DNA of 64,000 nucleotides, taken from NCBI GenBank assembly GCA_050184115.1, contig JBFXAQ010000013.1, positions 44,674 to 108,673 of the forward strand, in the 5' to 3' direction. Position numbers and translations under genes: made by a program. The notes beneath the pieces are model-generated. The model did no database searches and was not told where the DNA came from. It saw only the letters and a list, made by a program, of their open reading frames with translations. Shown here one piece after another: positions 23,986-33,469 of the stretch; within the stretch, counting starts at the first letter, position 1, and each line of letters starts with the position of its first letter. Source of the stretch: Gammaproteobacteria bacterium (GTDB lineage: Bacteria > Pseudomonadota > Gammaproteobacteria > Ga0077536).

Positions 23986-24027
23986 CGCGACGTCGAACAG
24001 GGCGCTGATTCAACCAGGAACGATCCG

Positions 24028-26091
24028 ATGGTCGAGGAATCCCGAAATCCTGGCACGAAGGTCGTTTCCGGTAAGGCCTCGTCGCCGGGTTCGAGCGCGG
24101 CTGGGGCGAGGCGCGAGTCGCGTGGCGACCGTGAAGCTCTCGAAGCCCGCGCGCGCCGCGTGCCGCCGGCAATGAGCTACGAGGACTTGTCCCGTGCCAT
24201 TGCCAAGTCGTTGAACGCCTTCGACGCCGTCGACGAGAACGGCCTGTTCGTCTACGTCAACGAAGCCTACGTGAACCTTTGGGGCTACGACAGTGCCGAC
24301 GAGATCATCGGCACCTCACCGGCGAGTCACTGCGCCGACGCGACAATGCCCGGCCGCATCATCGCCGAAGTCAGCGAAAAGGGTTCCGGAGACTTCTATT
24401 TCGACGCCCTGCGCAAGGACGGTTCGACGTTCAAGTGCCACATGCGGGTGTCCGTCCTGGACCGACCGGATGGAAGCCGCATCTACCACGGTTTCTCGCA
24501 AGACATCACCGAACTCGTCGCCGCCGAAGCCGAGCTCGCGAAGAGCCGCGATCGCCTGAAAGCCGCGGCGTCGGCAGGCGTCATCGGCGTGTGGGACTGG
24601 GACATCCTCGCCAACGATCTCTATTGGGACGACGTCATGTACCGGCTCTACGGCGGGTCCGCGGACGATTACCACTGCGCCTATGACGCCTGGTTCGCGA
24701 CGCTGCACCCGGACGACCAACCCGTCGTGGCTGCCGCGGTCGATGCCGCACTGCGCAAAGGAACGCAGTACGCGTCCGAGTTCCGCATCGTGTTGCCGTC
24801 CGGAGCGATGCGCTACATCCAGGCGAAAGCCCGGGTCGAATGTGACGACGACGGACGTCCGGTGCGCATGATCGGGGTGAACTACGACATCACTGAGCAG
24901 AAGACGGCGAGCGCAGCGGCCGAGGCTGCCAGCCGGGCCAAGAGCCGCTTCCTGGCGACCATGAGTCACGAGCTGCGCACGCCGATGAACGGTGTGCTCG
25001 GCATGGCGCACCTGTTGCGGCGCGGTGCGACCGAGCAGCAACTGCGGCGGCTCGATACGCTGGAAGCGTCGGGTCGGCACATGGTCGCCCTGATCAATGA
25101 CATCCTCGACCTCGCGAAGATCGATGAAGATCGGTTGCAGCTACACGAGACCGCGGTCGACGTCCGTGAAGTGGTGCAGGAGGCCATCCAGGGGGTAAGC
25201 GAAGAGGCGAGGGCGAAAGGCCTGGCCTTGCGCGTCGAGCTGCCGGAGCAGCTGCCACCAGTCCGGGTCGACGCGACGCGACTTCGCCAGGGGCTGTTCA
25301 ACTACCTGTCCAACGCGGTCAAGTTCACCGAGAGCGGGAGCATCGTCGCGAGGGTGACGTGCGAGATTCTCGCCAACGGTGACCGCAGGCTGCGCTTCGA
25401 GGTGGAAGATACCGGTTGCGGTATCAGCCTGGACGATCAAGGCCGGCTGTTTCAACGCTTTCAGCAAATCGACGATTCCGCGACGCGGATGTTCGGGGGT
25501 AGCGGCCTCGGCCTCGCCATCACCCGCGAGCTCGCGAGACTGATGGGCGGCGACGTCGGGGTGGAGAGCACGCCGGGTGTCGGCTCGATGTTCTGGTTCA
25601 CCGTGGTTGCGCAGCCAGCTGCGCAGTCGTCGTTGCCTGCGGAGCAGTCGATCAGCGATGCGGAAGAACGCTTGCGTGCCCTTCATGCGGGGCGGCGCAT
25701 CCTCGTCGCCGAGGACGATCCCATCAACCAGAAGCTCATTGAGGAGCTGCTCGCGGTGGCGAACCTCGAGGTCGACATCGTCGAGAACGGGCAGGCAGCC
25801 CTCGACAGGGTGGCCAAGGATTCCTACGACCTGGTCCTGATGGACATGTTGATGCCCGGGATGGGCGGCCTCGAGGCGGCGCGACGAATCCGCGCGCTGC
25901 CCGACATGGACAGCCTGCCGATCATCGCCTTCACCGCGAACGTACTGCCCGAACAGCGTTCCCGCTATCTCGCCGAAGGCGTGAACGACGTGCTGGAAAA
26001 GCCGGTCGATGTCGCGGCGCTGTACGCGACGATCAGGTATTGGTTGGATGCCGGGAAAGACCGGGCCGGGACGAGTTCCAGCGTCCGATGA
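24028..26091 (+). CDS. Hybrid sensor histidine kinase/response regulator with PAS domains
   Basis: Two PAS-like segments. HisKA SHELRTPMNGVLGMAHLL. HATPase_c (DTGCGISLDDQ, GGSGLGLAI). C-terminal receiver (ILVAEDDPINQ...DLVLMDMLMPGMGG). Confidence 0.85.
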   Translation: MVEESRNPGTKVVSGKASSPGSSAAGARRESRGDREALEARARRVPPAMSYEDLSRAIAKSLNAFDAVDENGLFVYVNEAYVNLWGYDSADEIIGTSPASHCADATMPGRIIAEVSEKGSGDFYFDALRKDGSTFKCHMRVSVLDRPDGSRIYHGFSQDITELVAAEAELAKSRDRLKAAASAGVIGVWDWDILANDLYWDDVMYRLYGGSADDYHCAYDAWFATLHPDDQPVVAAAVDAALRKGTQYASEFRIVLPSGAMRYIQAKARVECDDDGRPVRMIGVNYDITEQKTASAAAEAASRAKSRFLATMSHELRTPMNGVLGMAHLLRRGATEQQLRRLDTLEASGRHMVALINDILDLAKIDEDRLQLHETAVDVREVVQEAIQGVSEEARAKGLALRVELPEQLPPVRVDATRLRQGLFNYLSNAVKFTESGSIVARVTCEILANGDRRLRFEVEDTGCGISLDDQGRLFQRFQQIDDSATRMFGGSGLGLAITRELARLMGGDVGVESTPGVGSMFWFTVVAQPAAQSSLPAEQSISDAEERLRALHAGRRILVAEDDPINQKLIEELLAVANLEVDIVENGQAALDRVAKDSYDLVLMDMLMPGMGGLEAARRIRALPDMDSLPIIAFTANVLPEQRSRYLAEGVNDVLEKPVDVAALYATIRYWLDAGKDRAGTSSSVR

Positions 26092-26122
26092 GCGGGCATC
26101 AGGCCGTCCCTCGTCCAGCCCC

Positions 26123-27739
26123 TCAGGCCACCTCGAACTCCCGGTACCCGCCGGCCTTGATGTCGTCACAACGCTGCCGGTAGACGTCGACGCCGCCGGC
26201 ATAGGCCAGCAGGCTGCGGCGCTTGCCAGCGATGTTCGAGCCCATGTACCAGGAGTTGGCCTTGGAGACGAGGATGGCGTTGGCCACTTCTTCGTGGTGG
26301 GCGACCCATTCGGCTTCGGCCTTGGCCGTCGGTTCGATCGAGTGACCCTGGCGGTCACGTACGAACTCGATGCAGTCGGTGATCCAGTCGAGCTGCTGCT
26401 GGATGCAGGTCGGCACGTTGCAGAAGGCCGCGGCCGGCGACAGCGGTGCGCCGCACAGGAACATGTTCGGGAAGCCGTGCACCTGCAGGCCGAGCAGCGC
26501 GCGTACGCCGTCGGCCCAGGCATCGCGCAGGAGGACGCCGTCACGCCCGCGGATGTCGATGTGGGTCAGTGCACCGGTACCGGCGTCGAAGCCGGTGGCA
26601 TAAATCAGCATGTCCAGATCGTGCTCGCCGGCGGTGGTCCTGACCCCGCGCGGTGTGATGCACTCGACAGGGGTTTCGCGTAGGTCGACCAGGTCGACAT
26701 TGTCACGGTTGTAGGCTTCGTAGTAGCCCATTTCGAGCGGTACCCGGCGCGTGCCGAAGCCATAGCTGGTCGGTACGAGCTTCTCGGCCAGCTTCGGATC
26801 CTTGATCCGCGCGCGGATTTTCTCGCGCGCGAACTCGGAGAACTCCGCGCTGGCGCGTTCGTCGGTGAAGACGTCACGGAACGAGCCCACCCAGTAGGCC
26901 AGCGAGCCGTCCTCCCACAGTTCCTCCATGCGCTGGCGCCGTGCGGCTGCGTCCAGTTCGAAGAAGCTGCGCGCGTCGAAATCGAACTCGGCGCCGGAGA
27001 AGGTCTGGTGTACGCGCGCCTTGAGATCGCGGTAACGCGCGCGCTGCGCGGCACGCCCGGCATCGTCGTACTTCGGGTTCTTCATCGGGATGGTGTAGGT
27101 CGGCGTGCGCTGGAACACCGTCAGGTGACCGACTTCGGCGGCGATGGTCTGGACGACCTGGATGCCGGTCGCGCCGGTGCCGAAGAGCCCGACCCGCTTG
27201 TTGGCGAACGTGACCGGTTCCTTCGGCCAGCGCGCGGTGTGGTGCCACTCGCCGGCGAAGCTGTCGATGCCGGGATAGTCGGGCAGGACCGGTTCGGTCA
27301 GGGGCCCCGAACACATGACGAGGAAGCGTGCGCCCAACTGTTCGCCGGCCTCGGTGGTCACGGTCCAGTGGTCGCCCGAGGCATCGAGGTCTGCCGCCAC
27401 CACGCGGGTCTTGAACTGGATGTCGCGGCGCAGAGCGAACTTGTCGGCGACGAAATTCAGGTAGCGTTCGGTTTCCTCCTGTGCGGCGAAGCGCTCGCTC
27501 CAGTTCCATTCGTCGAGCAGTTCGTCGGAGAACCAGTACTGGTAGACGTCGGTGGTCGAGTCGGTGCGGGCACCGGGGTAGCGGTTCCAGTACCAGGTGC
27601 CGCCGACGTTCTCCGCCCGGTCCAGTACGCGGACGCGCAGGCCGCGTTCGCGCAGTTGGTAGAGCGCGTACAGCCCGCTGAATCCCGCCCCGATCACGAT
27701 CGCGTCGAATTCGCGATCCGTCCCTTGTACGTCGCCCAT
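26123..27739 (-). CDS. Baeyer-Villiger monooxygenase (type I, FAD/NADPH, cyclohexanone-monooxygenase-like)
   Basis: Rossmann GAGFSG. BVMO fingerprint FAGEWHHTARW (FxGxxxHxxxW). Second nucleotide-binding GTGATG. RBS GGAGGAGG. Confidence 0.9.
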   Translation of the reverse strand: MGDVQGTDREFDAIVIGAGFSGLYALYQLRERGLRVRVLDRAENVGGTWYWNRYPGARTDSTTDVYQYWFSDELLDEWNWSERFAAQEETERYLNFVADKFALRRDIQFKTRVVAADLDASGDHWTVTTEAGEQLGARFLVMCSGPLTEPVLPDYPGIDSFAGEWHHTARWPKEPVTFANKRVGLFGTGATGIQVVQTIAAEVGHLTVFQRTPTYTIPMKNPKYDDAGRAAQRARYRDLKARVHQTFSGAEFDFDARSFFELDAAARRQRMEELWEDGSLAYWVGSFRDVFTDERASAEFSEFAREKIRARIKDPKLAEKLVPTSYGFGTRRVPLEMGYYEAYNRDNVDLVDLRETPVECITPRGVRTTAGEHDLDMLIYATGFDAGTGALTHIDIRGRDGVLLRDAWADGVRALLGLQVHGFPNMFLCGAPLSPAAAFCNVPTCIQQQLDWITDCIEFVRDRQGHSIEPTAKAEAEWVAHHEEVANAILVSKANSWYMGSNIAGKRRSLLAYAGGVDVYRQRCDDIKAGGYREFEVA

Positions 27740-27801
27740 CGAATGAACCTCCTCCGGTTGAGTCGCTACCTGCGCAGTGCTTCGCGCTTGACGTTGCGTA
27801 A

Positions 27802-27823
27802 TAAGAATATAAGGATATTCTTA
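27802..27823. promoter_or_regulatory. Perfect 9-4-9 inverted repeat TAAGAATAT-aagg-ATATTCTTA in the divergent BVMO / ArsR-rhodanese promoter region
   Basis: Seen directly. Lies in the only AT-rich stretch of this intergenic region. A likely operator of the adjacent ArsR-type regulator. Confidence 0.45.
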
Positions 27824-27929
27824 AGTTCTTAAGGCAGAGTCAATTGCATCCGTCAGCTGATCGCTGCTGTGCAAGTGGCTCTGAGCAGAAGCCTGGCAGG
27901 GCATTCCTGTCGCAAGACGGAGGATCGGC

Positions 27930-28607
27930 ATGAAGAAACTCGACCGCAGCCTGACCGAATCCATCTTCGAGCAACTGGCGCGGATCGGTAAGGCCGTGGC
28001 GAGTCCCAAGCGCCTGGAGGTGCTGTACCTGTTGAGCCAGGCGCCGCGCACGGTCGATGTCCTGGCCGAGGCCACCCACACCAGCCAGGCCGGCATGTCG
28101 CAGCACCTGCGCGCGTTGCGCGAGGCCAACCTGATCGTCGGCGAGCGCGACGGCAACTTCATGCGTTACCGCATCGCCGACGAGCGCGTGGCGGAGTTCT
28201 ACCGCACCCTGGGTCTGCTGGCCGTGACCCACCTCGCCGATCTCGATCGCATCACGGGCGCCTATTTCACCGGCCAGGAAGCCGTCGAGCCGGTCGATCG
28301 CGAACAGCTGCTCGAGCGTGTGCGCAACGACGAGGCCACCATCATCGACGTGCGGCCGCACGTCGAGTACCAGAACGGTCACATCGAGGGCGCGGTATCG
28401 ATGCCGCTCGACGATCTCGAAGCGCGCCTGGCGGAACTGCCGCGGGACCAGGAGATCGTCGCCTACTGCCGGGGCCCTTACTGCGTGTGGTCCGGCCAGG
28501 CGGTGGCGTACCTGCTCGAACAGGGCTTCCGTGCCAGGCATCTCAGGGACGGCGTACTCGATTGGCGTGCGCATGGTCTGCCGGTGTCCGAGGAGGCCCG
28601 GCACTAG
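27930..28607 (+). CDS. ArsR/SmtB-family transcriptional regulator fused to a C-terminal rhodanese domain
   Basis: The N-terminal HTH_20 region (LARIGKAVASPKRLEVLYLLSQAPRTVDVLAEATHTSQAGMSQHLRALREANLI) and the C-terminal rhodanese region (TIIDVRPHVEYQNGHIEGAVSMP...IVAYCRGPYCVWS) with its active-site Cys loop are both recognisable. Confidence 0.85.
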   Translation: MKKLDRSLTESIFEQLARIGKAVASPKRLEVLYLLSQAPRTVDVLAEATHTSQAGMSQHLRALREANLIVGERDGNFMRYRIADERVAEFYRTLGLLAVTHLADLDRITGAYFTGQEAVEPVDREQLLERVRNDEATIIDVRPHVEYQNGHIEGAVSMPLDDLEARLAELPRDQEIVAYCRGPYCVWSGQAVAYLLEQGFRARHLRDGVLDWRAHGLPVSEEARH

Positions 28608-28608
28608 T

Positions 28609-28763
28609 GGGCTGTCCCGCAATCAACTTGCAATTCTCGCTGGTCCTTTTGCCGCGATACGTCGTTGCTCGTCGCTCACACGCCGAGCATGTCATCCGCT
28701 CCTCGCGCCTTGTTTCGCGACAAAGGTCCTGCGCGATTTATCGAACTTGATTGCGGGACAGCA
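28609..28763. repeat. About 155-bp element bounded by perfect 16-bp terminal inverted repeats GCTGTCCCGCAATCAA / TTGATTGCGGGACAGC (repeat family C, copy 1)
   Basis: TIRs at 28612-28627 and 28746-28761. The internal sequence is about 75 % identical to the element at 62879-63022. Confidence 0.6.
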
Positions 28764-28880
28764 CACAAGCGCGCGGAACGATTTCTACGGCGACGGGGTC
28801 GTGCCAACGGGCGCGGCCGCGTCGGAATTCTTGCCGGCCACACCCATCGATGGCCGGCTGCTCAAGGGGAGAACAGTGCA

Positions 28881-30707
28881 ATGAGTCAGGTCAGAAGCGA
28901 AGCCGGGGCGGTCGACGCCCTCGATCCGTCGGTGCTGGGATTCGATCCGGCGGAGGTTCGCCGCAAGTACGCCGAGGAGCGCGAGAAGCGCCTGCGGCCG
29001 GACGCCGGCGACCAGTTCGTCGAGGTCGTCGGTGAGAACGCCCATTACGAGGACGATCCCTACGTCGAACCGGGTTTCACCCGCGCAGCCATCCACGAGG
29101 ACATCGACGTCGCCATCCTCGGCGGCGGTTTCGGCGGGCTGCTCGCCGCGGCACGGCTGAAGGAAGCCGGCGTGACGAACGTCCGCATCATCGAGAAGGC
29201 CGGCGACTTCGGCGGCACCTGGTACTGGAACCGCTACCCCGGCGCGCAATGCGACATCGAGTCCTACATCTACCTGCCGCTGCTCGACGAGACCGGCTAC
29301 GTGCCGAAGGAGAAGTATTCCTTCCAGCCGGAGATCTTCGAACATGCCCAGCGCGTCGGCCGGTTCTACGATCTCTACCCGCGCGCCTGCTTCCAGACCC
29401 AGGTGAAAGACGCCCGCTGGTCGGACGAGGACGGCCGCTGGACGGTGACGACGGATCGCGATGACGTCTTCCGCGCCCGCTTTCTCGTCATGTCGAGCGG
29501 GCCGCTCAACCGGCCGCGGCTGCCCGGCATTCCCGGGCTGAACACGTTCAAGGGCCATGCATTCCATACCAGCCGCTGGGACTACGACTACACAGGCGGC
29601 AGTTCGGACGGCGTCCTCGACAAGCTCGGCGACAAGCGCGTCGCCATCATCGGCACCGGCGCGACCGCGGTACAGGCGGTGCCGCGCGTGGCCAGGTCGG
29701 CGCAGAAGCTCTACGTGTTCCAACGCACGCCATCCTTTGTCGACGAGCGCTGGAACCGGCCGACCGACCCAGCGTGGGCGAAATCACTGAAACCCGGCTG
29801 GCAGGCCGAACGCAACGAGAATTTCTGCACGATCCTGGCCGGTCTGCCGGTCGACGAAGACATGGTCGCCGACAAGTGGACCGACTTCTTCCGCCTCACC
29901 TACGAGATTCTCGCCTCGCATATGGGCGAGGTGTCCGACGAGCGCATGAAGCTGATCTCCGAAGTGGCCGATTACAAGAAGGGCAACGACGTGCGCGATC
30001 GCGTTGCGCGCACGGTCAGCGATCCGCAAACGGCCGAAGCGCTCAAACCCTGGTTCGGCCAGTGGTGCAAGCGGCCGCTGTTCAACGACGAGTACCTGCC
30101 GTGCTTCAACCAGCCAAACGTCGAACTGGTCGACACCCATGGCCAGGGTGTCGAGCGCATCACCGAGAACGGCGTGGTGGTCGACGGCGTCGAGTACGAA
30201 GTCGACTGCATCGTTTTCGCCACCGGCTTCGAGGTCAGCACGGCCTACACGCGCCGTTCAGAGTGTGAGGTCTACGGCCGCGACGGCGTGACCCTGACCG
30301 ACTACTGGGCCGACGGCATGAAGACCTTCCATGGTTTCCTGAGCCAGGGCTTTCCGAACTGCTTCCACATGGGCCTCACCCAGACCGGGCTCGCCTTCAA
30401 CTTCACTTACTCGTTGGGCGGCCAGGCGCGCCACATCGCCTACCTCGTCAAGCAGGTCTTCGACCGCGATGCCAAGTCGATCGAACCGACCGCGAAGGCC
30501 GAGGCCGACTGGGTGAAGCTCGTCACCGGGCCGAGCCCGATGCGCGACTACCAGGCGACCTGCACGCCCGGTTACTACAACCAGGAGGGTAAGAACGAGG
30601 GCCAGGGCTTCCTCGACAACCTCTACCCGGAAGGCGCGGTGCCGTTCTTCAGGTTGTTGAAGGCGTGGCGCGAGCAGGGGACCCTCGACGGCATCGACCT
30701 GCGCTGA
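28881..30707 (+). CDS. Baeyer-Villiger monooxygenase with N-terminal extension (HAPMO/CPDMO-like type I BVMO)
   Basis: GGGFGG Rossmann. FKGHAFHTSRW fingerprint. GTGATA second site. Start at MSQVRSEAG after AAGGGGAGAA. Confidence 0.9.
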   Translation: MSQVRSEAGAVDALDPSVLGFDPAEVRRKYAEEREKRLRPDAGDQFVEVVGENAHYEDDPYVEPGFTRAAIHEDIDVAILGGGFGGLLAAARLKEAGVTNVRIIEKAGDFGGTWYWNRYPGAQCDIESYIYLPLLDETGYVPKEKYSFQPEIFEHAQRVGRFYDLYPRACFQTQVKDARWSDEDGRWTVTTDRDDVFRARFLVMSSGPLNRPRLPGIPGLNTFKGHAFHTSRWDYDYTGGSSDGVLDKLGDKRVAIIGTGATAVQAVPRVARSAQKLYVFQRTPSFVDERWNRPTDPAWAKSLKPGWQAERNENFCTILAGLPVDEDMVADKWTDFFRLTYEILASHMGEVSDERMKLISEVADYKKGNDVRDRVARTVSDPQTAEALKPWFGQWCKRPLFNDEYLPCFNQPNVELVDTHGQGVERITENGVVVDGVEYEVDCIVFATGFEVSTAYTRRSECEVYGRDGVTLTDYWADGMKTFHGFLSQGFPNCFHMGLTQTGLAFNFTYSLGGQARHIAYLVKQVFDRDAKSIEPTAKAEADWVKLVTGPSPMRDYQATCTPGYYNQEGKNEGQGFLDNLYPEGAVPFFRLLKAWREQGTLDGIDLR

Positions 30708-30804
30708 GACCGCGCGTGGTGCCGGGCCTGGCGTCCGGCACCGCCGTTCCCGATCGCGTTCGGTGACAGTTTCCTTTTTGCGGCCCTGATGTTCCTGCCT
30801 TTCC

Positions 30805-30861
30805 GGGACAGACCACGGTTTGCGGACCACGGCGAGGCAACGCAAACCGTGGTCCGTCCCC
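30805..30861. repeat. MITE/REP-like element, family A copy 1: GGGACAGACCACGGTTTGCG ... CGCAAACCGTGGTCCGTCCCC
   Basis: 20-bp terminal inverted repeats (1 mismatch) with a 16-bp spacer. Lies between the BVMO and the benE-like gene. Confidence 0.6.
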
Positions 30862-30905
30862 GAATGAGAAGCTGTCCGTCACCGATTCTCCGATAAGCTT
30901 CCCGC

Positions 30906-32132
30906 ATGAGCCTCGAACGTCCCTCGGCGCCGCCGCCGGGTCTCCATGACATCGTCGCCGCTGCCGATCGGCACATCCTCGCCAATGCCCTGGTCGGTTT
31001 CCTGTTCGCGGCGACGGGGCCACTGGCCATCCTCATCGCCATCGGTACCGGCGGGGGACTCACCAGCGACGACATCGCGAGCTGGGTGTTCGGCTCCTAT
31101 GGCCTCACCGGGGTCATCACCATCGCGCTGAGCTGGTTGTGGCGCATGCCGCTGCCCATCGCCTGGACCATTCCCGGTGCCGTCCTGCTGATCCCCGCCT
31201 TCGGTCACCTGGGCTTCGCCGAGATCGTTGGCGCCACCCTGGTCTCCGGCGTGTTGATGACGGTGCTGGGGATCACCGGCTGGGTCGGTTGGCTCATGGC
31301 GCGTATCCCGATGCCCGTCGTCATGGGCATGGTGGCCGGGGTGTTCCTGCCGTTCGGCCTCGGCATCATCAAGGCATTCGAGGCCGAACCCGTGGTCGCC
31401 ACGGTTACCACGGTGGTATTCGTCGCACTGGCACGGGTCGCGCGCCTCGGACGCATCGTCCCGCCCGTGCTCGGCGCGCTGGCGGCAGGGTTCGTGCTGA
31501 TCTGGGCGACCGGTCGCTTCGAGGTCGGCGCGCTGGCCGGGGAGGTGTTGGTGAGGCCGCACTTCTACACTCCCCAATTCACACTGGAAGCGCTGATCGA
31601 GCTGGTTGTGCCGCTCGCGCTCACCGTGATCACCATCCAGAACGCGCAGGGCATTTCGATCCTGCGCATGGCGGGCTTTCCGCCGCCCACCAACCTACTA
31701 ACCGTCGCGTGTGGCCTCGGTACGTTGGCCGTGGGTGTCGTCGGCTCGGTACCGGCCTGTGTCACCGGCCCCTCCAACGCGATGATCAACGCCTCCGGAG
31801 CGCGCGACGATCGCTACGTGGGCGGCATGGCCTTCGGTGCGCTCATGCTGATGCTGGGGCTGTTCTCGCCGCTCGCGATCAGCTTCGCCCTTGCCCTGCC
31901 CAAGGCCTTCGTCGCGCTGCTCGGTGGGCTCGCCATGCTCCGCGTACTCGAATCCGCCTTCCTCGCAGCCTTCGGCGGCGGCTTCAGCTTTGGCGCGCTG
32001 GTGGCCTTCCTGGTGACCGTGGCCGATATCACCCTCTTCAACGTCGGCGCCGCTTTCTGGGGCCTGGTGTTCGGGTTTGCCACGGCCTGGGTGTTCGAGC
32101 GCAAGGACTTCGCGGTACCACGTTCACCGTAG
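30906..32132 (+). CDS. BenE-family (benzoate/H+ symporter-like) membrane transporter
   Basis: About 12 TM segments and family-typical glycine-rich helices. 408 aa. Confidence 0.75.
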   Translation: MSLERPSAPPPGLHDIVAAADRHILANALVGFLFAATGPLAILIAIGTGGGLTSDDIASWVFGSYGLTGVITIALSWLWRMPLPIAWTIPGAVLLIPAFGHLGFAEIVGATLVSGVLMTVLGITGWVGWLMARIPMPVVMGMVAGVFLPFGLGIIKAFEAEPVVATVTTVVFVALARVARLGRIVPPVLGALAAGFVLIWATGRFEVGALAGEVLVRPHFYTPQFTLEALIELVVPLALTVITIQNAQGISILRMAGFPPPTNLLTVACGLGTLAVGVVGSVPACVTGPSNAMINASGARDDRYVGGMAFGALMLMLGLFSPLAISFALALPKAFVALLGGLAMLRVLESAFLAAFGGGFSFGALVAFLVTVADITLFNVGAAFWGLVFGFATAWVFERKDFAVPRSP

Positions 32133-32143
32133 CCCCGTTCAAC

Positions 32144-33469
32144 TCATGCCATGTGAACCTGGCACCTCGAACCACGATGCCGGCCTCGAGCCAGCCTGCT
32201 CACCGGCCACATCGCCGACCCGAGCAGTGCCAGCGAAGGTGGTATGGGAACGGGTTCTGCCGTGACGGCCAGGATGCCACTGGTTGCAGTTGTCGTGAAA
32301 TCGAAATGCAGGCCCGCAATATCAGGAAACTGGATGGTGTCGAAAGCGCCCGTGATGGCTTGGGCCAACAGTATCGTGAAGACGTCGCCGGGAGCGGGCG
32401 TGTAGCCGTGGAGAAGAGAAACATCGAGAGTGCCATCGAGATTCAGGACATTCTCGACGTCGAGCACCGTGAACTCCCCGTCGTCTGCGCCGCTCAACCC
32501 GATGCGCACGGTGGCGGTCTCCAGAATGTCGAGATCTCCGGCGACATCGAACCCGCCGGTGTAATAGGTCGAGTCGCCAACCTGGAACTCTCCTGCCACG
32601 GTCACGTGACCGACCGCCGTTGCCGAGTCTCCGTGCAGGCGTGCGAACCGGTCGACGAAGATCTCGTCCGCAAGCAATTGGGCGCCGGGGCCAAGGTAGA
32701 TATTGTGAAACGCGAAGTCGTCCAGGGGTTGGTTGGACTCGAATCGAAACAGCGTTCCCGCGTCGAGTAATGAGGCGGGCTCGGTGACACGGATTTCGAC
32801 GAAGCGATCCGCGTCCGCGTTGACGACCAAGGCCGGGACGCTCATCTGTCCACCGTAGCTGATCGAAAGCGAATCGTTGCTCAGGTTGAATTGCCCGGAG
32901 CCACTGAACTGACCGTCATAGTCGATGTTCAGGAAAAGGCTGCTATCCATCGAGCCGTCGTTGACGATCGTGCCGTAGGTCAGACGGATAGCCGAGTCGT
33001 TGTCGATCGTTCCGCTGTTGGTGAGTGCGCGGTCGCCGGAAATTAGGACGTATCCCGGTGGGTGAAAGATCAACTCGCCGGCGTTCTCCAGGTGGCCGGA
33101 GTCGATCACGACGTTTCCGTAGTTGTCGACCAAACCATGATTTACCAGGGTTTGCCCAGACCGGATCTTGATGGCACCGTGATTGGTCAACGTACCTTGG
33201 TTGATGACGCGCCCGTTCCGTATCGTGAGCTCGCCGTGAGTATTGATTCCGTCATTGAGGATGGTGACGGTGTCGGCGGCCGAAATCGTCCAGTTGGTGT
33301 CGATGAAAGTCGGTTGATCGATGACGAAGTCCGTCGCGATGGCGGTATGCGTTACAAGCAGCGCAACGCTCGTGACGGCGGATGGCCACCACGCCGGGCG
33401 CTCGTGTCGGCGCGGCCTAGCAGTATCGCGAAGAGCTTTGGACGACGTAATGCCGGTCCGCTGGCGCAT
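32144..33469 (-). CDS. Secreted repeat protein with a PEP-CTERM sorting signal
   Basis: N-terminal signal. Body of degenerate beta-helix-like repeats (INTHGEL / INQGTL / VNHGLV / IDNDSA ...). C-terminus ...TAEPVPIPPSLALLGSAMWPVSRLARGRHRG = P-x-P, hydrophobic helix, Arg-rich tail, a divergent VPIP variant of the PEP motif. Confidence 0.55.
   Translation of the reverse strand: MRQRTGITSSKALRDTARPRRHERPAWWPSAVTSVALLVTHTAIATDFVIDQPTFIDTNWTISAADTVTILNDGINTHGELTIRNGRVINQGTLTNHGAIKIRSGQTLVNHGLVDNYGNVVIDSGHLENAGELIFHPPGYVLISGDRALTNSGTIDNDSAIRLTYGTIVNDGSMDSSLFLNIDYDGQFSGSGQFNLSNDSLSISYGGQMSVPALVVNADADRFVEIRVTEPASLLDAGTLFRFESNQPLDDFAFHNIYLGPGAQLLADEIFVDRFARLHGDSATAVGHVTVAGEFQVGDSTYYTGGFDVAGDLDILETATVRIGLSGADDGEFTVLDVENVLNLDGTLDVSLLHGYTPAPGDVFTILLAQAITGAFDTIQFPDIAGLHFDFTTTATSGILAVTAEPVPIPPSLALLGSAMWPVSRLARGRHRGSRCQVHMA

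What the first reader, a model, noticed from the sequence alone, without database searches (positions are those of the whole stretch)
26123..30707. Two Baeyer-Villiger monooxygenases flanking an ArsR-rhodanese fusion regulator with a perfect 9-4-9 operator-like palindrome
The divergent region between BVMO-1 and the regulator contains TAAGAATATaaggATATTCTTA (27802-27823), the only AT-rich patch there. The regulator joins an ArsR/SmtB HTH to a catalytic-looking rhodanese domain (CRGPYC loop). Established knowledge: ArsR-family persulfide sensors (BigR/SqrR type) use cysteine chemistry, and rhodanese domains carry persulfides. Inference: a sulfane-sulfur or redox-responsive switch controlling ketone-oxidising BVMOs would be an unusual regulatory logic for Baeyer-Villiger chemistry.
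Basis: partly seen in the sequence, partly recalled or inferred. Interest (0 to 1): 0.55.

Follow-up and report, generated by a model that had tools for sequence, protein, structure and literature searches.

The report
ArsR-rhodanese regulator wired to two BVMOs
A DNA-binding repressor fused to a sulfur-carrying (rhodanese) domain sits between two ketone-oxidising monooxygenase genes with a 22-bp mirror-image site in its promoter; the same arrangement recurs in related bacteria, so a regulator family normally tied to sulfur metabolism appears to have been re-wired to control oxygenases.

Summary
The perfect 9-4-9 palindrome, both type I BVMOs and the ArsR-rhodanese fusion (only cysteines C180 and C185, in the CRGPYC loop) are all present. 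BVMO-2 starts at 28881, not 28665.

The fusion belongs to a very large, uncharacterised family of about 225 aa. Across 160 distant loci (43-65% identity) none is near a BVMO. Of the 128 with enough flank, 71 sit beside DsrE, SQR-like, rhodanese-MBL or cysteine-desulfurase genes. 131 of 153 carry ATTCAA-N8-TTGAAT just upstream of the gene.

The window protein lies in a sub-clade (at least 69% identity, 11 lineages) with an altered recognition helix. This clade lacks that operator and has no sulfur neighbours. It has its own AT-rich dyad with core ATAT-AAGG-ATAT.

In five lineages of the clade, plus one truncated regulator remnant, the regulator is followed by a BVMO-2 orthologue. Two of them also have BVMO-1 divergent, so the BVMO link is not chance. 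The other lineages pair the regulator with an NtaA/DmoA-type monooxygenase, a desaturase and a Lar cluster.

Best reading: an autoregulated repressor on the dyad, sensing through the rhodanese cysteine pair, probably sulfane sulfur. The SqrR/BigR cysteine pair is absent. The signal and the DNA binding are untested. This is a new variant of a known kind.

The parts
26123..27739 (-). BVMO-1, a 538-aa type I Baeyer-Villiger monooxygenase (PAMO/STMO/CHMO-like), transcribed divergently from the regulator.
   Evidence: Carries GAGFSG, GGTWYWNRYPG, FAGEWHHTARWP and GTGATG. Best solved relative is phenylacetone monooxygenase 1w4x, E 7e-159. Pfam FMO-like. Orthologues of 83% (L175) and 92% (L174, fragment) identity are also divergent from the regulator.
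27740..27929 (.). 190-bp divergent intergenic region shared by BVMO-1 and the regulator operon.
   Evidence: 53% GC overall, with a single AT-rich patch. No strict sigma-70 consensus and no terminator were found. No Rfam family matched.
27802..27823 (.). Perfect 9-4-9 palindrome TAAGAATAT-AAGG-ATATTCTTA, the candidate operator. It lies 63-84 nt from the BVMO-1 ATG and 107-128 nt from the regulator ATG.
   Evidence: Unique in the window. p about 0.006-0.009 within the intergenic region. Related sites matching 14-21 of 22 positions occur upstream of the regulator in all clade lineages, against a maximum of 14 of 22 in 340 control windows. Its 22-bp length equals the minimal SqrR operator reported in 10.64898/2026.05.15.721447.
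27818..27833 (+). Tandem direct repeat TTCTTAAG TTCTTAAG overlapping the right arm. It offers a possible third TTCTTA half-site 8 bp downstream.
   Evidence: Read directly from the sequence. It is not conserved in L174, so its significance is unknown.
27930..28607 (+). ArsR/SmtB-rhodanese fusion regulator, 225 aa.
   Evidence: Pfam HTH_5 and Rhodanese. NCBIfam HTH_metalloreg 74 bits against a cut-off of 55. Identical to an NCBI protein annotated 'MAG: ArsR/SmtB family transcription factor [Gammaproteobacteria bacterium]'. AF2 model has mean pLDDT 78, with alpha1-alpha5, a long alpha5 helix (85-113) and a rhodanese fold.
28002..28136 (+). Winged-helix DNA-binding core (residues 25-69), including the recognition helix TSQAGMSQHLRALRE.
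   Evidence: The helix reads AGMS...R.LRE in the window clade and AN[AT]S...Q.LR in the rest of the family.
28302..28571 (+). Rhodanese domain (residues 125-214).
   Evidence: PF00581, 62.6 bits against a cut-off of 22.2. It aligns with the rhodanese domain of the Shewanella persulfide reductase 3nta.
28467..28484 (+). Active-site loop C180-R-G-P-Y-C185, the only cysteines in the protein and the proposed sensor.
   Evidence: Both cysteines are invariant in the 29 aligned homologues. C180 aligns with the catalytic C531 of 3nta, by my count from the alignment and the mutant names.
28608..28880 (+). 273-nt spacer between the regulator and BVMO-2, with no terminator-like site and no second copy of the dyad. 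The two genes are probably co-transcribed.
   Evidence: The spacer is 93-126 nt in the relatives, which share only the GGGGAGAACA ribosome-binding region.
28881..30707 (+). BVMO-2, a 608-aa type I BVMO with an N-terminal extension (PockeMO/PtlE-like group).
   Evidence: Carries GGGFGG, GGTWYWNRYPG, FKGHAFHTSRWD and GTGATA. Best solved relative is 5mq6, E 1e-131. PtlE model 716 bits, below its 1100 cut-off. Orthologues of 85-92% identity sit directly downstream of the regulator in L087, L089, L174 and L175.

Best explanation
The three genes form a regulatory module.

The ArsR-rhodanese protein binds as a dimer to the 22-bp dyad in the divergent promoter region. From there it represses BVMO-1 on one side and its own transcript, which continues into BVMO-2, on the other.

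The ArsR domain has no cysteine and no metal-site residues. The signal is therefore received by the C-terminal rhodanese domain. C180 takes up sulfane sulfur as a persulfide, C185 four residues later resolves or bridges it (di-, tri- or polysulfide), and the change passes through the long alpha5 helix to the DNA-binding domain and releases the operator.

This clade kept the family's sensor but changed its recognition helix, its operator and its target genes, moving from sulfur-relay and sulfide-oxidation genes to O2-dependent oxygenases.

Shown here: the domain architecture, the invariant cysteines, the conserved gene order, the conserved cis-element and the family-wide sulfur context.

Inferred: binding to the dyad, repression, co-transcription with BVMO-2, the chemistry at the cysteine pair and the identity of the signal.
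For: Gene order:
- The regulator is followed by BVMO-2 in W, L174 (regulator 90% identical), L089-92 (76%), L087/88 (75%) and L175/176 (74%). A regulator remnant (residues 175-225) directly precedes the BVMO-2 orthologue in L179.
- BVMO-1 is divergent in L174 and L175.
- Outer flanks differ between loci: histidine kinase and BenE, AraC and a cyclase, isochorismatase, SnoaL with OYE, a DEAD helicase.

Cis-element:
- Sites matching 14-21 of 22 positions of the palindrome lie upstream of the regulator in every clade lineage. Their orientation and distance (59-167 nt) vary, and they occur whatever the divergent gene is.
- 340 control windows reach at most 14 of 22.
- An unbiased k-mer count gives ATATAAG in 8 of 11 lineages and ATATAAGG, TATAAGGA and ATAAGGAT in 5 of 11.

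Family habit of autoregulation through a dyad: ATTCAA-N8-TTGAAT at 10 or more of 12 positions in 131 of 153 family upstream regions, against 185 of 9059 control windows, a median of 16 nt before the start codon.

The operator change matches a recognition-helix change. SqrR specificity resides in that helix.

Sensor:
- C180 and C185 are invariant, and C180 aligns with the catalytic cysteine of the persulfide reductase rhodanese domain.
- 71 of 128 family loci have a DsrE, SQR-like, rhodanese-MBL or cysteine-desulfurase gene within 5 kb.
- Among members with no cysteine in the ArsR domain the figure is 30 of 46, so the sulfur link does not need an ArsR-domain dithiol.

Precedent for a sulfide-responsive ArsR regulator controlling non-sulfur genes: YgaV (PMC9774250).
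Against: - The window clade itself has no sulfur-type neighbour (0 of 15 loci), and none occurs anywhere in the 64-kb window. The sulfur signal is therefore extrapolated from relatives 43-65% identical.
- The perfect symmetry is not conserved. The 90%-identical relative L174 has TTTAAATAT-TAGA-ATATTCTTA (6 of 9 arm pairs), and several lineages keep only one good arm.
- The asymmetric centre AAGG is conserved, which a simple spacer would not be.
- The patch is AT-rich and full of -10-like hexamers, so promoter function could explain part of the conservation. No clean sigma-70 promoter could be placed.
- No second site precedes BVMO-2 across the 273-nt gap.
- A BVMO-2 homologue of 72% identity uses a MarR-like neighbour instead.
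- No experimental paper on this fusion was found in the held library.
- The loop conservation in the genome loci is partly by ascertainment, because AYCRGPYC was the search pattern.
Confidence: 0.5

Rival explanations
1. The architecture and operator are as in the best explanation, but the C180-X4-C185 pair senses oxidants or thiol-disulfide stress by forming a disulfide, not sulfane sulfur. Possible sources include H2O2 from uncoupled flavin monooxygenases, or electrophiles. The module would then be a redox safety switch for oxygenases.
For: - Two cysteines four residues apart in one loop can form a disulfide.
- The window clade has lost every sulfur-gene neighbour and instead sits beside O2- and flavin-dependent enzymes: BVMOs, an NtaA/DmoA-family monooxygenase, a fatty-acid desaturase and an OYE.
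- BigR is reported to form a disulfide (PMC9774250).
Against: - The loop is identical to that of family members embedded in DsrE, SQR-like and persulfide-dioxygenase-like contexts.
- C180 occupies the canonical persulfide-carrying position of a short-loop, sulfur-type rhodanese.
- SqrR-type sensors are selective for persulfides over oxidants (10.1101/2020.03.22.001966).
Confidence: 0.2
2. The AT-rich patch is mainly the shared core promoter (-10 and UP-like elements) of the divergent genes in a GC-rich genome. The perfect 9-4-9 symmetry in this genome is incidental. The regulator recognises something smaller, such as a single CTTATAT/ATATAAG element, or a different site.
For: - Symmetry decays quickly: L174 has 6 of 9 arm pairs and L089 has 6 of 9.
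- The best-conserved words are TATAAG-like.
- A weak TTGACT-N17-GAATAT can be read by eye on the BVMO-1 strand overlapping the right arm. This is my reading and falls below the tool's threshold.
Against: - The element keeps dyad character (ATAT-N4-ATAT plus CTTA flanks) in most lineages.
- It flips orientation relative to the gene.
- It stays upstream of the regulator even where there is no divergent gene (L087, with AraC upstream on the same strand).
- The chance of a 9-bp perfect arm in the spacer is below 1%.
- The wider family shows an unmistakable dyad at the equivalent place.
Confidence: 0.15
3. The regulator only autoregulates or acts on distant genes. Its adjacency to the BVMOs reflects co-inheritance of a mobile block without regulatory coupling.
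For: - In the wider family the conserved dyad lies immediately before the regulator's own start.
- There is no dyad copy in front of BVMO-2.
- The 273-nt gap in this genome could hold an independent promoter.
Against: - The pair regulator-then-BVMO-2 is kept in six lineages with gaps of only 93-126 nt in the others, no terminator, and unrelated outer flanks.
- The dyad lies in the promoter region shared with BVMO-1.
Confidence: 0.1

Closest known systems
SqrR (Rhodobacter capsulatus), BigR (Xylella) and YgaV (E. coli): ArsR-family persulfide or sulfide sensors
   Same: ArsR/SmtB winged-helix fold (Foldseek and phmmer hits to 6o8k/6o8o and 3cuo). Cysteine-based sensing is proposed. The operator is a 22-bp dyad built from GAAT/ATTC tetrads. 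Autoregulated repressor logic. YgaV also controls non-sulfur genes.
   Different: The alpha2/alpha5 cysteine pair (C41/C107 in SqrR) is absent, as the ArsR domain has no cysteine at all. The BigR model scores 32 bits against a cut-off of 155. The half-site order is GAAT-N8-ATTC, not ATTC-N8-GAAT. The sensor is a fused rhodanese domain.
E. coli ygaV-ygaP operon (ArsR regulator plus a separate rhodanese)
   Same: It shows the same functional pairing of an ArsR regulator with a rhodanese. Both 3cuo (YgaV) and 5hbl (YgaP) are hit by the two halves of the window protein (PMC9774250).
   Different: Here the two are one polypeptide. YgaP is a membrane protein with a different loop. YgaV senses through its own cysteines.
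Mycobacterium Rv0324/Mb0332 (PDB 2kko and 3gw2, 'fragment 1-100')
   Same: It is the closest solved structure to the N-terminal domain: E 2e-14, 37% identity, TM 0.77. Rv0324 is an ArsR-family regulator implicated in bedaquiline tolerance. That it carries a C-terminal rhodanese domain is my recollection; it agrees with the PDB entries being fragments but was not tested here.
   Different: It is only distantly related. Its operator, signal and regulon mechanism are not described in the papers I could read, and there is no BVMO link.
The wider family of about 225-aa ArsR-rhodanese (AYCRGPYC) proteins found here in Acidobacteriota, Myxococcota, Actinomycetota, Binatia and other phyla
   Same: Same length, domain order, invariant C180/C185 loop and many invariant residues.
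   Different: The family operator ATTCAA-N8-TTGAAT is absent: 0 of 18 clade loci and 0 matches in the window. The recognition helix is changed. There are no DsrE, SQR-like or rhodanese-MBL neighbours. The alpha2/alpha5 cysteines present in 100 of 179 members are absent.
Rhodanese domains fused to redox enzymes (Npsr 3nta, CoADR-RHD 3icr)
   Same: These are the best solved relatives of the C-terminal domain, and the catalytic cysteine aligns with C180.
   Different: There the partner is a flavoprotein reductase, not a DNA-binding domain, and the loop lacks the second cysteine (FCQVGLRG against YCRGPYCV).
Known BVMO gene regulators (ChnR of the AraC family for cyclohexanone monooxygenase, EthR of the TetR family for EthA): from memory, not tested
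   Same: A dedicated regulator gene sits adjacent to or divergent from the BVMO gene. An AraC gene does lie upstream of the module in L087, and a MarR-like gene precedes a 72% BVMO-2 homologue in L180.
   Different: Those regulators respond to substrate-like ligands. An ArsR-rhodanese partner for a BVMO did not appear in the literature searches.

Membership tests
ArsR/SmtB transcription factors | Winged helix-turn-helix domain matching the family models above their cut-offs | tested here: met
   PF01022 HTH_5 45.7 bits (cut-off 22). NF033788 74 bits (cut-off 55).
ArsR/SmtB transcription factors | alpha1-alpha2-alpha3-alpha4-beta1-beta2-alpha5 fold | tested here: met
   The AF2 model has helices 6-22, 26-37, 42-49 and 53-65, strands 69-74 and 77-82, and helix 85-113. 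Foldseek gives TM 0.72-0.83 to CzrA, SmtB, SqrR and Mb0332. The dimer state is not testable with these tools.
Metal- or arsenic-sensing ArsR/SmtB | Metal ligands: alpha3 Cys-x-Cys or the alpha5 His/Asp/Glu cluster | tested here: not met
   There is no cysteine in residues 1-179, and alpha5 (85-113) contains a single His (H101). Read from the sequence.
SqrR/BigR-type persulfide sensors | Conserved cysteine pair in alpha2 and alpha5 that forms a di- or tetrasulfide | tested here: not met
   The only cysteines are C180 and C185 in the rhodanese loop. The feature is defined in 10.1101/2020.03.22.001966.
SqrR/BigR-type persulfide sensors | Curated BigR equivalog model NF040642 | tested here: not met
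   32 bits against a cut-off of 155.
SqrR/BigR-type persulfide sensors | Operator ATTC-N8-GAAT | tested here: not met
   The window site reads GAAT-N8-ATTC, with the half-sites in opposite order.
Rhodanese (sulfurtransferase) domain | Domain model above its cut-off | tested here: met
   PF00581 62.6 bits (cut-off 22.2), residues 125-214.
Rhodanese (sulfurtransferase) domain | Catalytic cysteine at the start of a short active-site loop after the central beta-strand (sulfur/selenium type, not the longer CX5R arsenate or phosphatase type) | tested here: met
   In IVAY-C180-RGPY-C185-V, C180 aligns with C531 of persulfide reductase 3nta. The loop-length rule is as stated in PMC5525254. The sixth loop position is Cys instead of the usual Arg, Ser or Thr.
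Rhodanese (sulfurtransferase) domain | Sulfur-transfer activity or persulfide formation | not testable with these tools
   Needs an enzyme assay or mass spectrometry.
ArsR-rhodanese fusion family (about 225 aa, AYCRGPYC) | Domain order, length and the invariant AYCRGPYC loop | tested here: met
   All 120 best homologues are 223-297 aa (nearly all 224-234) with both domains. 55 residues are invariant, including C180 and C185.
ArsR-rhodanese fusion family (about 225 aa, AYCRGPYC) | Upstream dyad ATTCAA-N8-TTGAAT (found here in 131 of 153 loci) | tested here: not met
   0 matches in the window with up to 2 mismatches. 0 of 18 clade loci reach 10 of 12.
ArsR-rhodanese fusion family (about 225 aa, AYCRGPYC) | Neighbourhood of DsrE, SQR-like, rhodanese-MBL or cysteine-desulfurase genes (71 of 128 loci) | tested here: not met
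   0 of 15 clade loci, and none in the 64-kb window.
Type I Baeyer-Villiger monooxygenases (both flanking genes) | Two Rossmann GxGxxG/A motifs, FxGxxxHxxxW[P/D] and GGxWxxxxYPG | tested here: met
   All motifs are present in both proteins. Full-length matches to solved BVMOs.
PtlE/PntE pentalenolactone D synthase (BVMO-2) | Equivalog model NF045818 at its cut-off | tested here: not met
   716 bits against a cut-off of 1100. It is the same subgroup but not an equivalog.

The most novel reading that the evidence does not exclude
ArsR-rhodanese fusions are a distinct, very widespread class of one-component sensors. In them a catalytic rhodanese domain, not thiols in the ArsR fold, is the receiver: signalling works by enzymatic sulfur transfer onto a CX4C loop. 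In this gammaproteobacterial clade the sensor was re-targeted by changes in the recognition helix and the operator. It now gates O2- and flavin-dependent oxygenases (two BVMOs here; an NtaA/DmoA monooxygenase, a desaturase and a nickel-pincer cluster in sister lineages). This would couple the cell's sulfane-sulfur or sulfide status to oxygenase expression, or mark these BVMOs as organosulfur S-oxygenases.
Probability: 0.3. Interest if true: 0.65.

Novelty: new variant of a known kind. Interest (0 to 1): 0.5.

Why it matters
If the model holds, it matters in four ways.

1. It gives a first mechanistic handle on a family with thousands of members across many phyla for which I found no experimental paper. 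From memory, that family includes M. tuberculosis Rv0324, a bedaquiline-tolerance regulator.
2. It predicts two concrete operators that can be tested at once: ATTCAA-N8-TTGAAT for the family and TAAGAATAT-AAGG-ATATTCTTA for this clade.
3. It shows a clean natural case of regulon re-wiring. The sensor is conserved while the recognition helix, the operator and the target genes all changed.
4. It links Baeyer-Villiger and flavin oxygenases to a sulfur or redox signal rather than the usual substrate-sensing AraC, TetR or MarR regulators. That bears on what these uncharacterised BVMOs oxidise, ketones or organosulfur compounds. It could also provide a compact persulfide-responsive switch for biosensing.

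Tried and rejected
- SqrR/BigR membership: rejected. No cysteines in the ArsR domain, a sub-threshold BigR model score, and the wrong half-site order.
- Metal or arsenic sensor: rejected. No ligand residues, and no ars or metal genes nearby.
- Acr2/Cdc25-like arsenate reductase loop (CX5R): rejected, because the loop is the short type.
- A general association of the fusion with BVMOs: rejected, 0 of 160 loci outside the clade.
- A second operator copy before BVMO-2 or elsewhere in the window: none found.
- The family operator in the window: none found.
- Riboswitch or other RNA element in 24000-33000: none found.
- Strict sigma-70 promoter or intrinsic terminator in 27600-29000: none found.
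It did not enlarge the close clade.
- The hybrid histidine kinase (24028-26091) as part of the module: not conserved in any related locus.
- Literature searches for 'ArsR-rhodanese', 'CRGPYC', 'C-terminal rhodanese' with ArsR, 'Rv0324' with rhodanese, and TsoR/TsoB gave nothing relevant. Peterson 2016 (PMC5010021) is not held.
- The 594-aa partner protein of the sister lineages has no Pfam, NCBIfam or PDB sequence match.

Full report
**1. What is in the window**

The sequence TAAGAATAT-AAGG-ATATTCTTA is at 27802-27823 exactly as reported.
- It is unique in the 64-kb window even with three mismatches allowed, against 0 of 100 shuffles.
- It is the only AT-rich one (18% GC) among the window's perfect inverted repeats with 9-bp arms. 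Perfect 9-bp palindromes as such are not rare here: 17 hits including nested ones, against about 10 in block shuffles. All the others are 64-100% GC.
- Inside the 190-bp intergenic region, an arm of at least 9 bp arises in 0.6-0.9% of shuffles.
- Local GC falls to 20% at the site, against 57-63% in the rest of the spacer.

The flanking genes are as described.
- BVMO-1 (26123-27739, minus strand, 538 aa) and BVMO-2 carry both Rossmann motifs, GGTWYWNRYPG and the FxGxxxHxxxW[P/D] fingerprint.
- BVMO-1 is closest to phenylacetone, steroid and cyclohexanone monooxygenases (1w4x, E 7e-159).
- BVMO-2 is closest to 5mq6 (E 1e-131; from memory this is PockeMO) and to the PtlE model, below its cut-off.
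- BVMO-2 starts at ATG 28881 (608 aa), not at the TTG of the long ORF at 28665.

The regulator (27930-28607, 225 aa) has HTH_5 at residues 25-69 and Rhodanese at residues 125-214. Its only cysteines are C180 and C185, in IVAY-CRGPYC-VW.

Nothing in Rfam matches the region. No strict sigma-70 promoter or intrinsic terminator is called.

**2. The fusion is a large, unstudied family**

- The protein search returned more than 7,000 hits. All 120 best are two-domain proteins of about 225 aa.
- In an alignment of 29 homologues (56-100% identity), 55 residues are invariant, including C180 and C185.
- No full-length structure exists. The best solved relative of the N-terminal half is the 'fragment 1-100' of M. 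bovis Mb0332 (2kko/3gw2). The best relatives of the C-terminal half are rhodanese domains of persulfide and CoA-disulfide reductases. By my count from the alignment, C180 aligns with the catalytic C531 of 3nta.
- The AF2 model (pLDDT 78) shows a canonical ArsR fold. Its alpha5 continues as a long helix (85-113) into a rhodanese fold.
- I found no paper on the mechanism of such fusions in the held library.

**3. What the family is usually next to, and its operator**

I clustered ORFs around 83 loci and named the recurrent clusters with Pfam. I then re-scored all 160 loci with regulators 43-65% identical to the window protein.
- None has a BVMO within the fetched flanks.
- Of the 128 loci with at least 2 kb of flank, 50 have a DsrE-family gene. 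25 have a Pyr_redox_2 (SQR-like) gene, 25 a rhodanese-metallo-beta-lactamase gene and 17 a cysteine desulfurase.
- 71 of the 128 have at least one of these. MFS, FA_hydroxylase and methyltransferase genes also recur.
- In the 150 nt upstream of the regulator, 131 of 153 loci carry ATTCAA-N8-TTGAAT at 10 or more of 12 positions, against 2% of 9,059 control windows. The spacer is 8 nt in 114 of the 131, and the site ends a median of 16 nt before the start codon.

This is a strong comparative prediction that family members are autoregulated dyad-binding repressors.

100 of 179 members also have cysteines at the positions of window residues 36 (end of alpha2) and 88 (start of alpha5). Members without these cysteines are at least as often next to sulfur genes (30 of 46, against 33 of 72). 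The sulfur link therefore does not depend on an ArsR-domain dithiol.

**4. The window protein belongs to a re-wired sub-clade**

Regulators at least 69% identical form 11 non-redundant lineages, 69-90% identical to one another.
- All lack C36 and C88.
- None has the family operator (0 of 18 loci).
- None has a sulfur-type neighbour (0 of 15 loci).
- No sulfur-type gene occurs anywhere in the window.
- The recognition helix reads TSQAGMSQHLRALRE, where the rest of the family has AN[AT]S.HLQ.LR.

Two context types occur.

Type A is the BVMO type.
- The window itself.
- L174 (90%), with fragments of both BVMOs flanking the regulator.
- L175/176 (74%), with BVMO-1 at 83% divergent and BVMO-2 at 90% downstream, then SnoaL and OYE genes.
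- L087/88 (75%), with an AraC gene upstream and BVMO-2 at 85% downstream.
- L089-92 (76%), with BVMO-2 at 89% downstream.
- L179, where an 89% BVMO-2 orthologue is preceded by a 5'-truncated regulator remnant (residues 175-225).

Type B is found in L001, L002/3, L004-6, L177, L178 and L093.
- Divergent from the regulator: a 594-aa protein with no family match, followed by LarC, LarE and LarB genes.
- Downstream: a fatty-acid desaturase, an NtaA/DmoA-family monooxygenase and a DUF2938 gene.

All six BVMO-2 orthologues of at least 85% identity that I could examine have the regulator or its remnant directly upstream. At 72% identity (L180) the BVMO-2 homologue has a MarR-like neighbour and a frameshifted BVMO-1-like gene nearby. 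The BVMO pair is therefore older than its link to this regulator.

**5. The cis-element in the clade**

- Every clade lineage has an isolated AT-rich patch 59-167 nt upstream of the regulator start. The best matches to the window palindrome are 14-21 of 22 positions, against a maximum of 14 of 22 (mode 11) in 340 control windows of the same loci.
- Examples: L087 TTAGAATAT-AAGG-ATATTCTTA on the opposite strand, L002 TAAGTATAT-AAGG-ATATATTTA, L089 TTATTATAT-AAGG-ATATGCTTA, L001 TAAGTATAT-AAGG-ATTTAATGA.
- The element occurs in either orientation relative to the gene and is present whatever lies upstream: BVMO-1, the 594-aa gene, or a co-directional AraC gene.
- An unbiased k-mer count finds ATATAAG in 8 of 11 lineages and ATATAAGG, TATAAGGA and ATAAGGAT in 5 of 11.

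Three cautions apply.
- The nearest relative, L174, keeps only the right arm and a 5-of-6 inner repeat (AAATAT-TAGA-ATATTC).
- The centre AAGG is conserved although it is asymmetric.
- The patch contains -10-like hexamers.

I conclude that a conserved regulator-associated element exists and has dyad character. The perfect 9-4-9 is the best-preserved version of it. Promoter and operator functions probably overlap.

The site is 22 bp long, the minimal SqrR operator length. It contains GAAT-N8-ATTC, the reverse half-site order of the SqrR/YgaV box ATTC-N8-GAAT.

**6. Mechanism proposed**

I take this to be an ArsR-type repressor dimer on the dyad. It controls BVMO-1 divergently and its own transcript, which most likely runs on into BVMO-2. 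There is no terminator, and the gap is 93-126 nt in the relatives against 273 nt here.

Sensing is through the rhodanese loop. C180 forms a persulfide that is resolved or bridged by C185, and the change is transmitted through the extended alpha5 helix.

The sulfur signal is inferred from three things: the canonical catalytic position of C180, the short sulfur-type loop, and the family's gene neighbourhoods. It is not shown for this clade. Oxidant sensing by the CX4C pair is the main rival.

Why BVMOs would answer to such a signal is open. They could act as S-oxygenases of organosulfur compounds; BVMO sulfoxidation is established knowledge, from memory. The sister lineages carry an NtaA/DmoA-family enzyme and LarE, a sulfur transferase. 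Alternatively, sulfide or persulfide could serve as a physiological cue for O2-dependent metabolism, as for YgaV.

**7. Comparison, novelty and verdict**

The protein works like the SqrR/BigR/YgaV class but is not a member. The defining cysteine pair, the curated model and the operator were all tested and not met.

It is a member of the ArsR-rhodanese fusion family by architecture. It departs from that family's operator and gene context.

The BVMO link is recurrent within a sub-clade rather than accidental. The wider family is indeed sulfur-associated. The 'BigR/SqrR-type' analogy does not hold at the residue level.

I rate it a new variant of a known kind, with interest 0.5. All functional steps (binding, signal, direction of control) await the experiments listed.

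Noticed in passing
L001 3929-5710, L002 4004-5785, L004 3987-5768, L177 3830-5611, L178 2272-4053 (all minus strand): A 594-aa protein, 93-95% identical between loci, has no Pfam, NCBIfam or PDB sequence match. It is always divergent from the clade's regulator and followed by LarC (split), LarE (TIGR00268) and LarB (AIRC) genes. It may be an unrecognised enzyme that depends on the nickel-pincer cofactor.
   Followed up: partly
Upstream 150 nt of the regulator in L007-L173 (for example L038, L079, L010): The wider ArsR-rhodanese family has a sharply defined dyad, A[T/A]TCAA-N8-TTGAAT. It is found in 131 of 153 loci against 2% of control windows and ends a median of 16 nt before the start codon. 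I found no description of it in the papers searched.
   Followed up: yes
Regulator alignment, window residues 36 and 88 (L021, L038, L045 and others): 100 of 179 family members have a cysteine pair at the end of alpha2 and the start of alpha5. Going by the HMMER coordinate offset to SqrR (about +9), these are not the positions of SqrR C41 and C107. The window clade has S36 and A88. The pair may be a second, relay-type sensing site in part of the family.
   Followed up: partly
L179 5728-5880: A 5'-truncated remnant of the regulator (residues 175-225, 78% identity) lies directly upstream of an 89% BVMO-2 orthologue and downstream of a DEAD-box helicase gene. It reflects either loss of the regulator in that lineage or a chimeric contig.
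   Followed up: partly
L180 4291-8861: A 72% BVMO-2 homologue is preceded by a 132-aa MarR-like (HTH_27) gene and followed, convergently, by a BVMO-1-like gene (49% identity) split into two ORFs, an apparent frameshift. P450, epoxide-hydrolase and SDR genes lie nearby. This suggests that the regulator of an older BVMO pair was replaced.
   Followed up: partly
window 27818-27833: A tandem TTCTTAAG TTCTTAAG repeat overlaps the palindrome's right arm (CTTAAG is itself a palindrome). It is not present in the 90% relative L174.
   Followed up: partly
window 28345-28366: A perfect GC-rich palindrome, TCGACGTGCGGCCGCACGTCGA, lies inside the regulator's coding sequence, at the conserved IDVRPHVE stretch of the rhodanese domain. 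It is probably a coding coincidence.
   Followed up: no
window 28608-28880: The regulator-BVMO-2 spacer is 273 nt here but 93-126 nt in all relatives. The extra roughly 150 nt have no counterpart in them and no recognisable element.
   Followed up: partly
window 24028-26091: A hybrid sensor kinase (PAS-PAS-HisKA-HATPase-REC, 687 aa) lies convergent with BVMO-1. It is not conserved next to the module in any related locus.
   Followed up: partly
window 32144-33469 (minus strand): A 441-aa ORF with no Pfam match lies downstream of the BenE-family transporter gene (30906-32132). Wider surroundings: two family-III CoA-transferases, an acyl-CoA dehydrogenase, two SDRs, a nitronate monooxygenase and a luciferase-like monooxygenase. 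This looks like a lipid or alicyclic-acid catabolic neighbourhood.
   Followed up: no
L007-L009, 8900-12500: Regulators 64-65% identical (Binatia, Thermodesulfobacteriota) are followed by a TPR protein of about 570 aa and an unknown protein of 411-467 aa. Upstream they carry a long palindrome (L007: AACATTCTTATATAA-N8-TTATATAAGAATGTT) that shares ATATAAG and AAGAAT words with the window site. This may be an intermediate operator type.
   Followed up: partly
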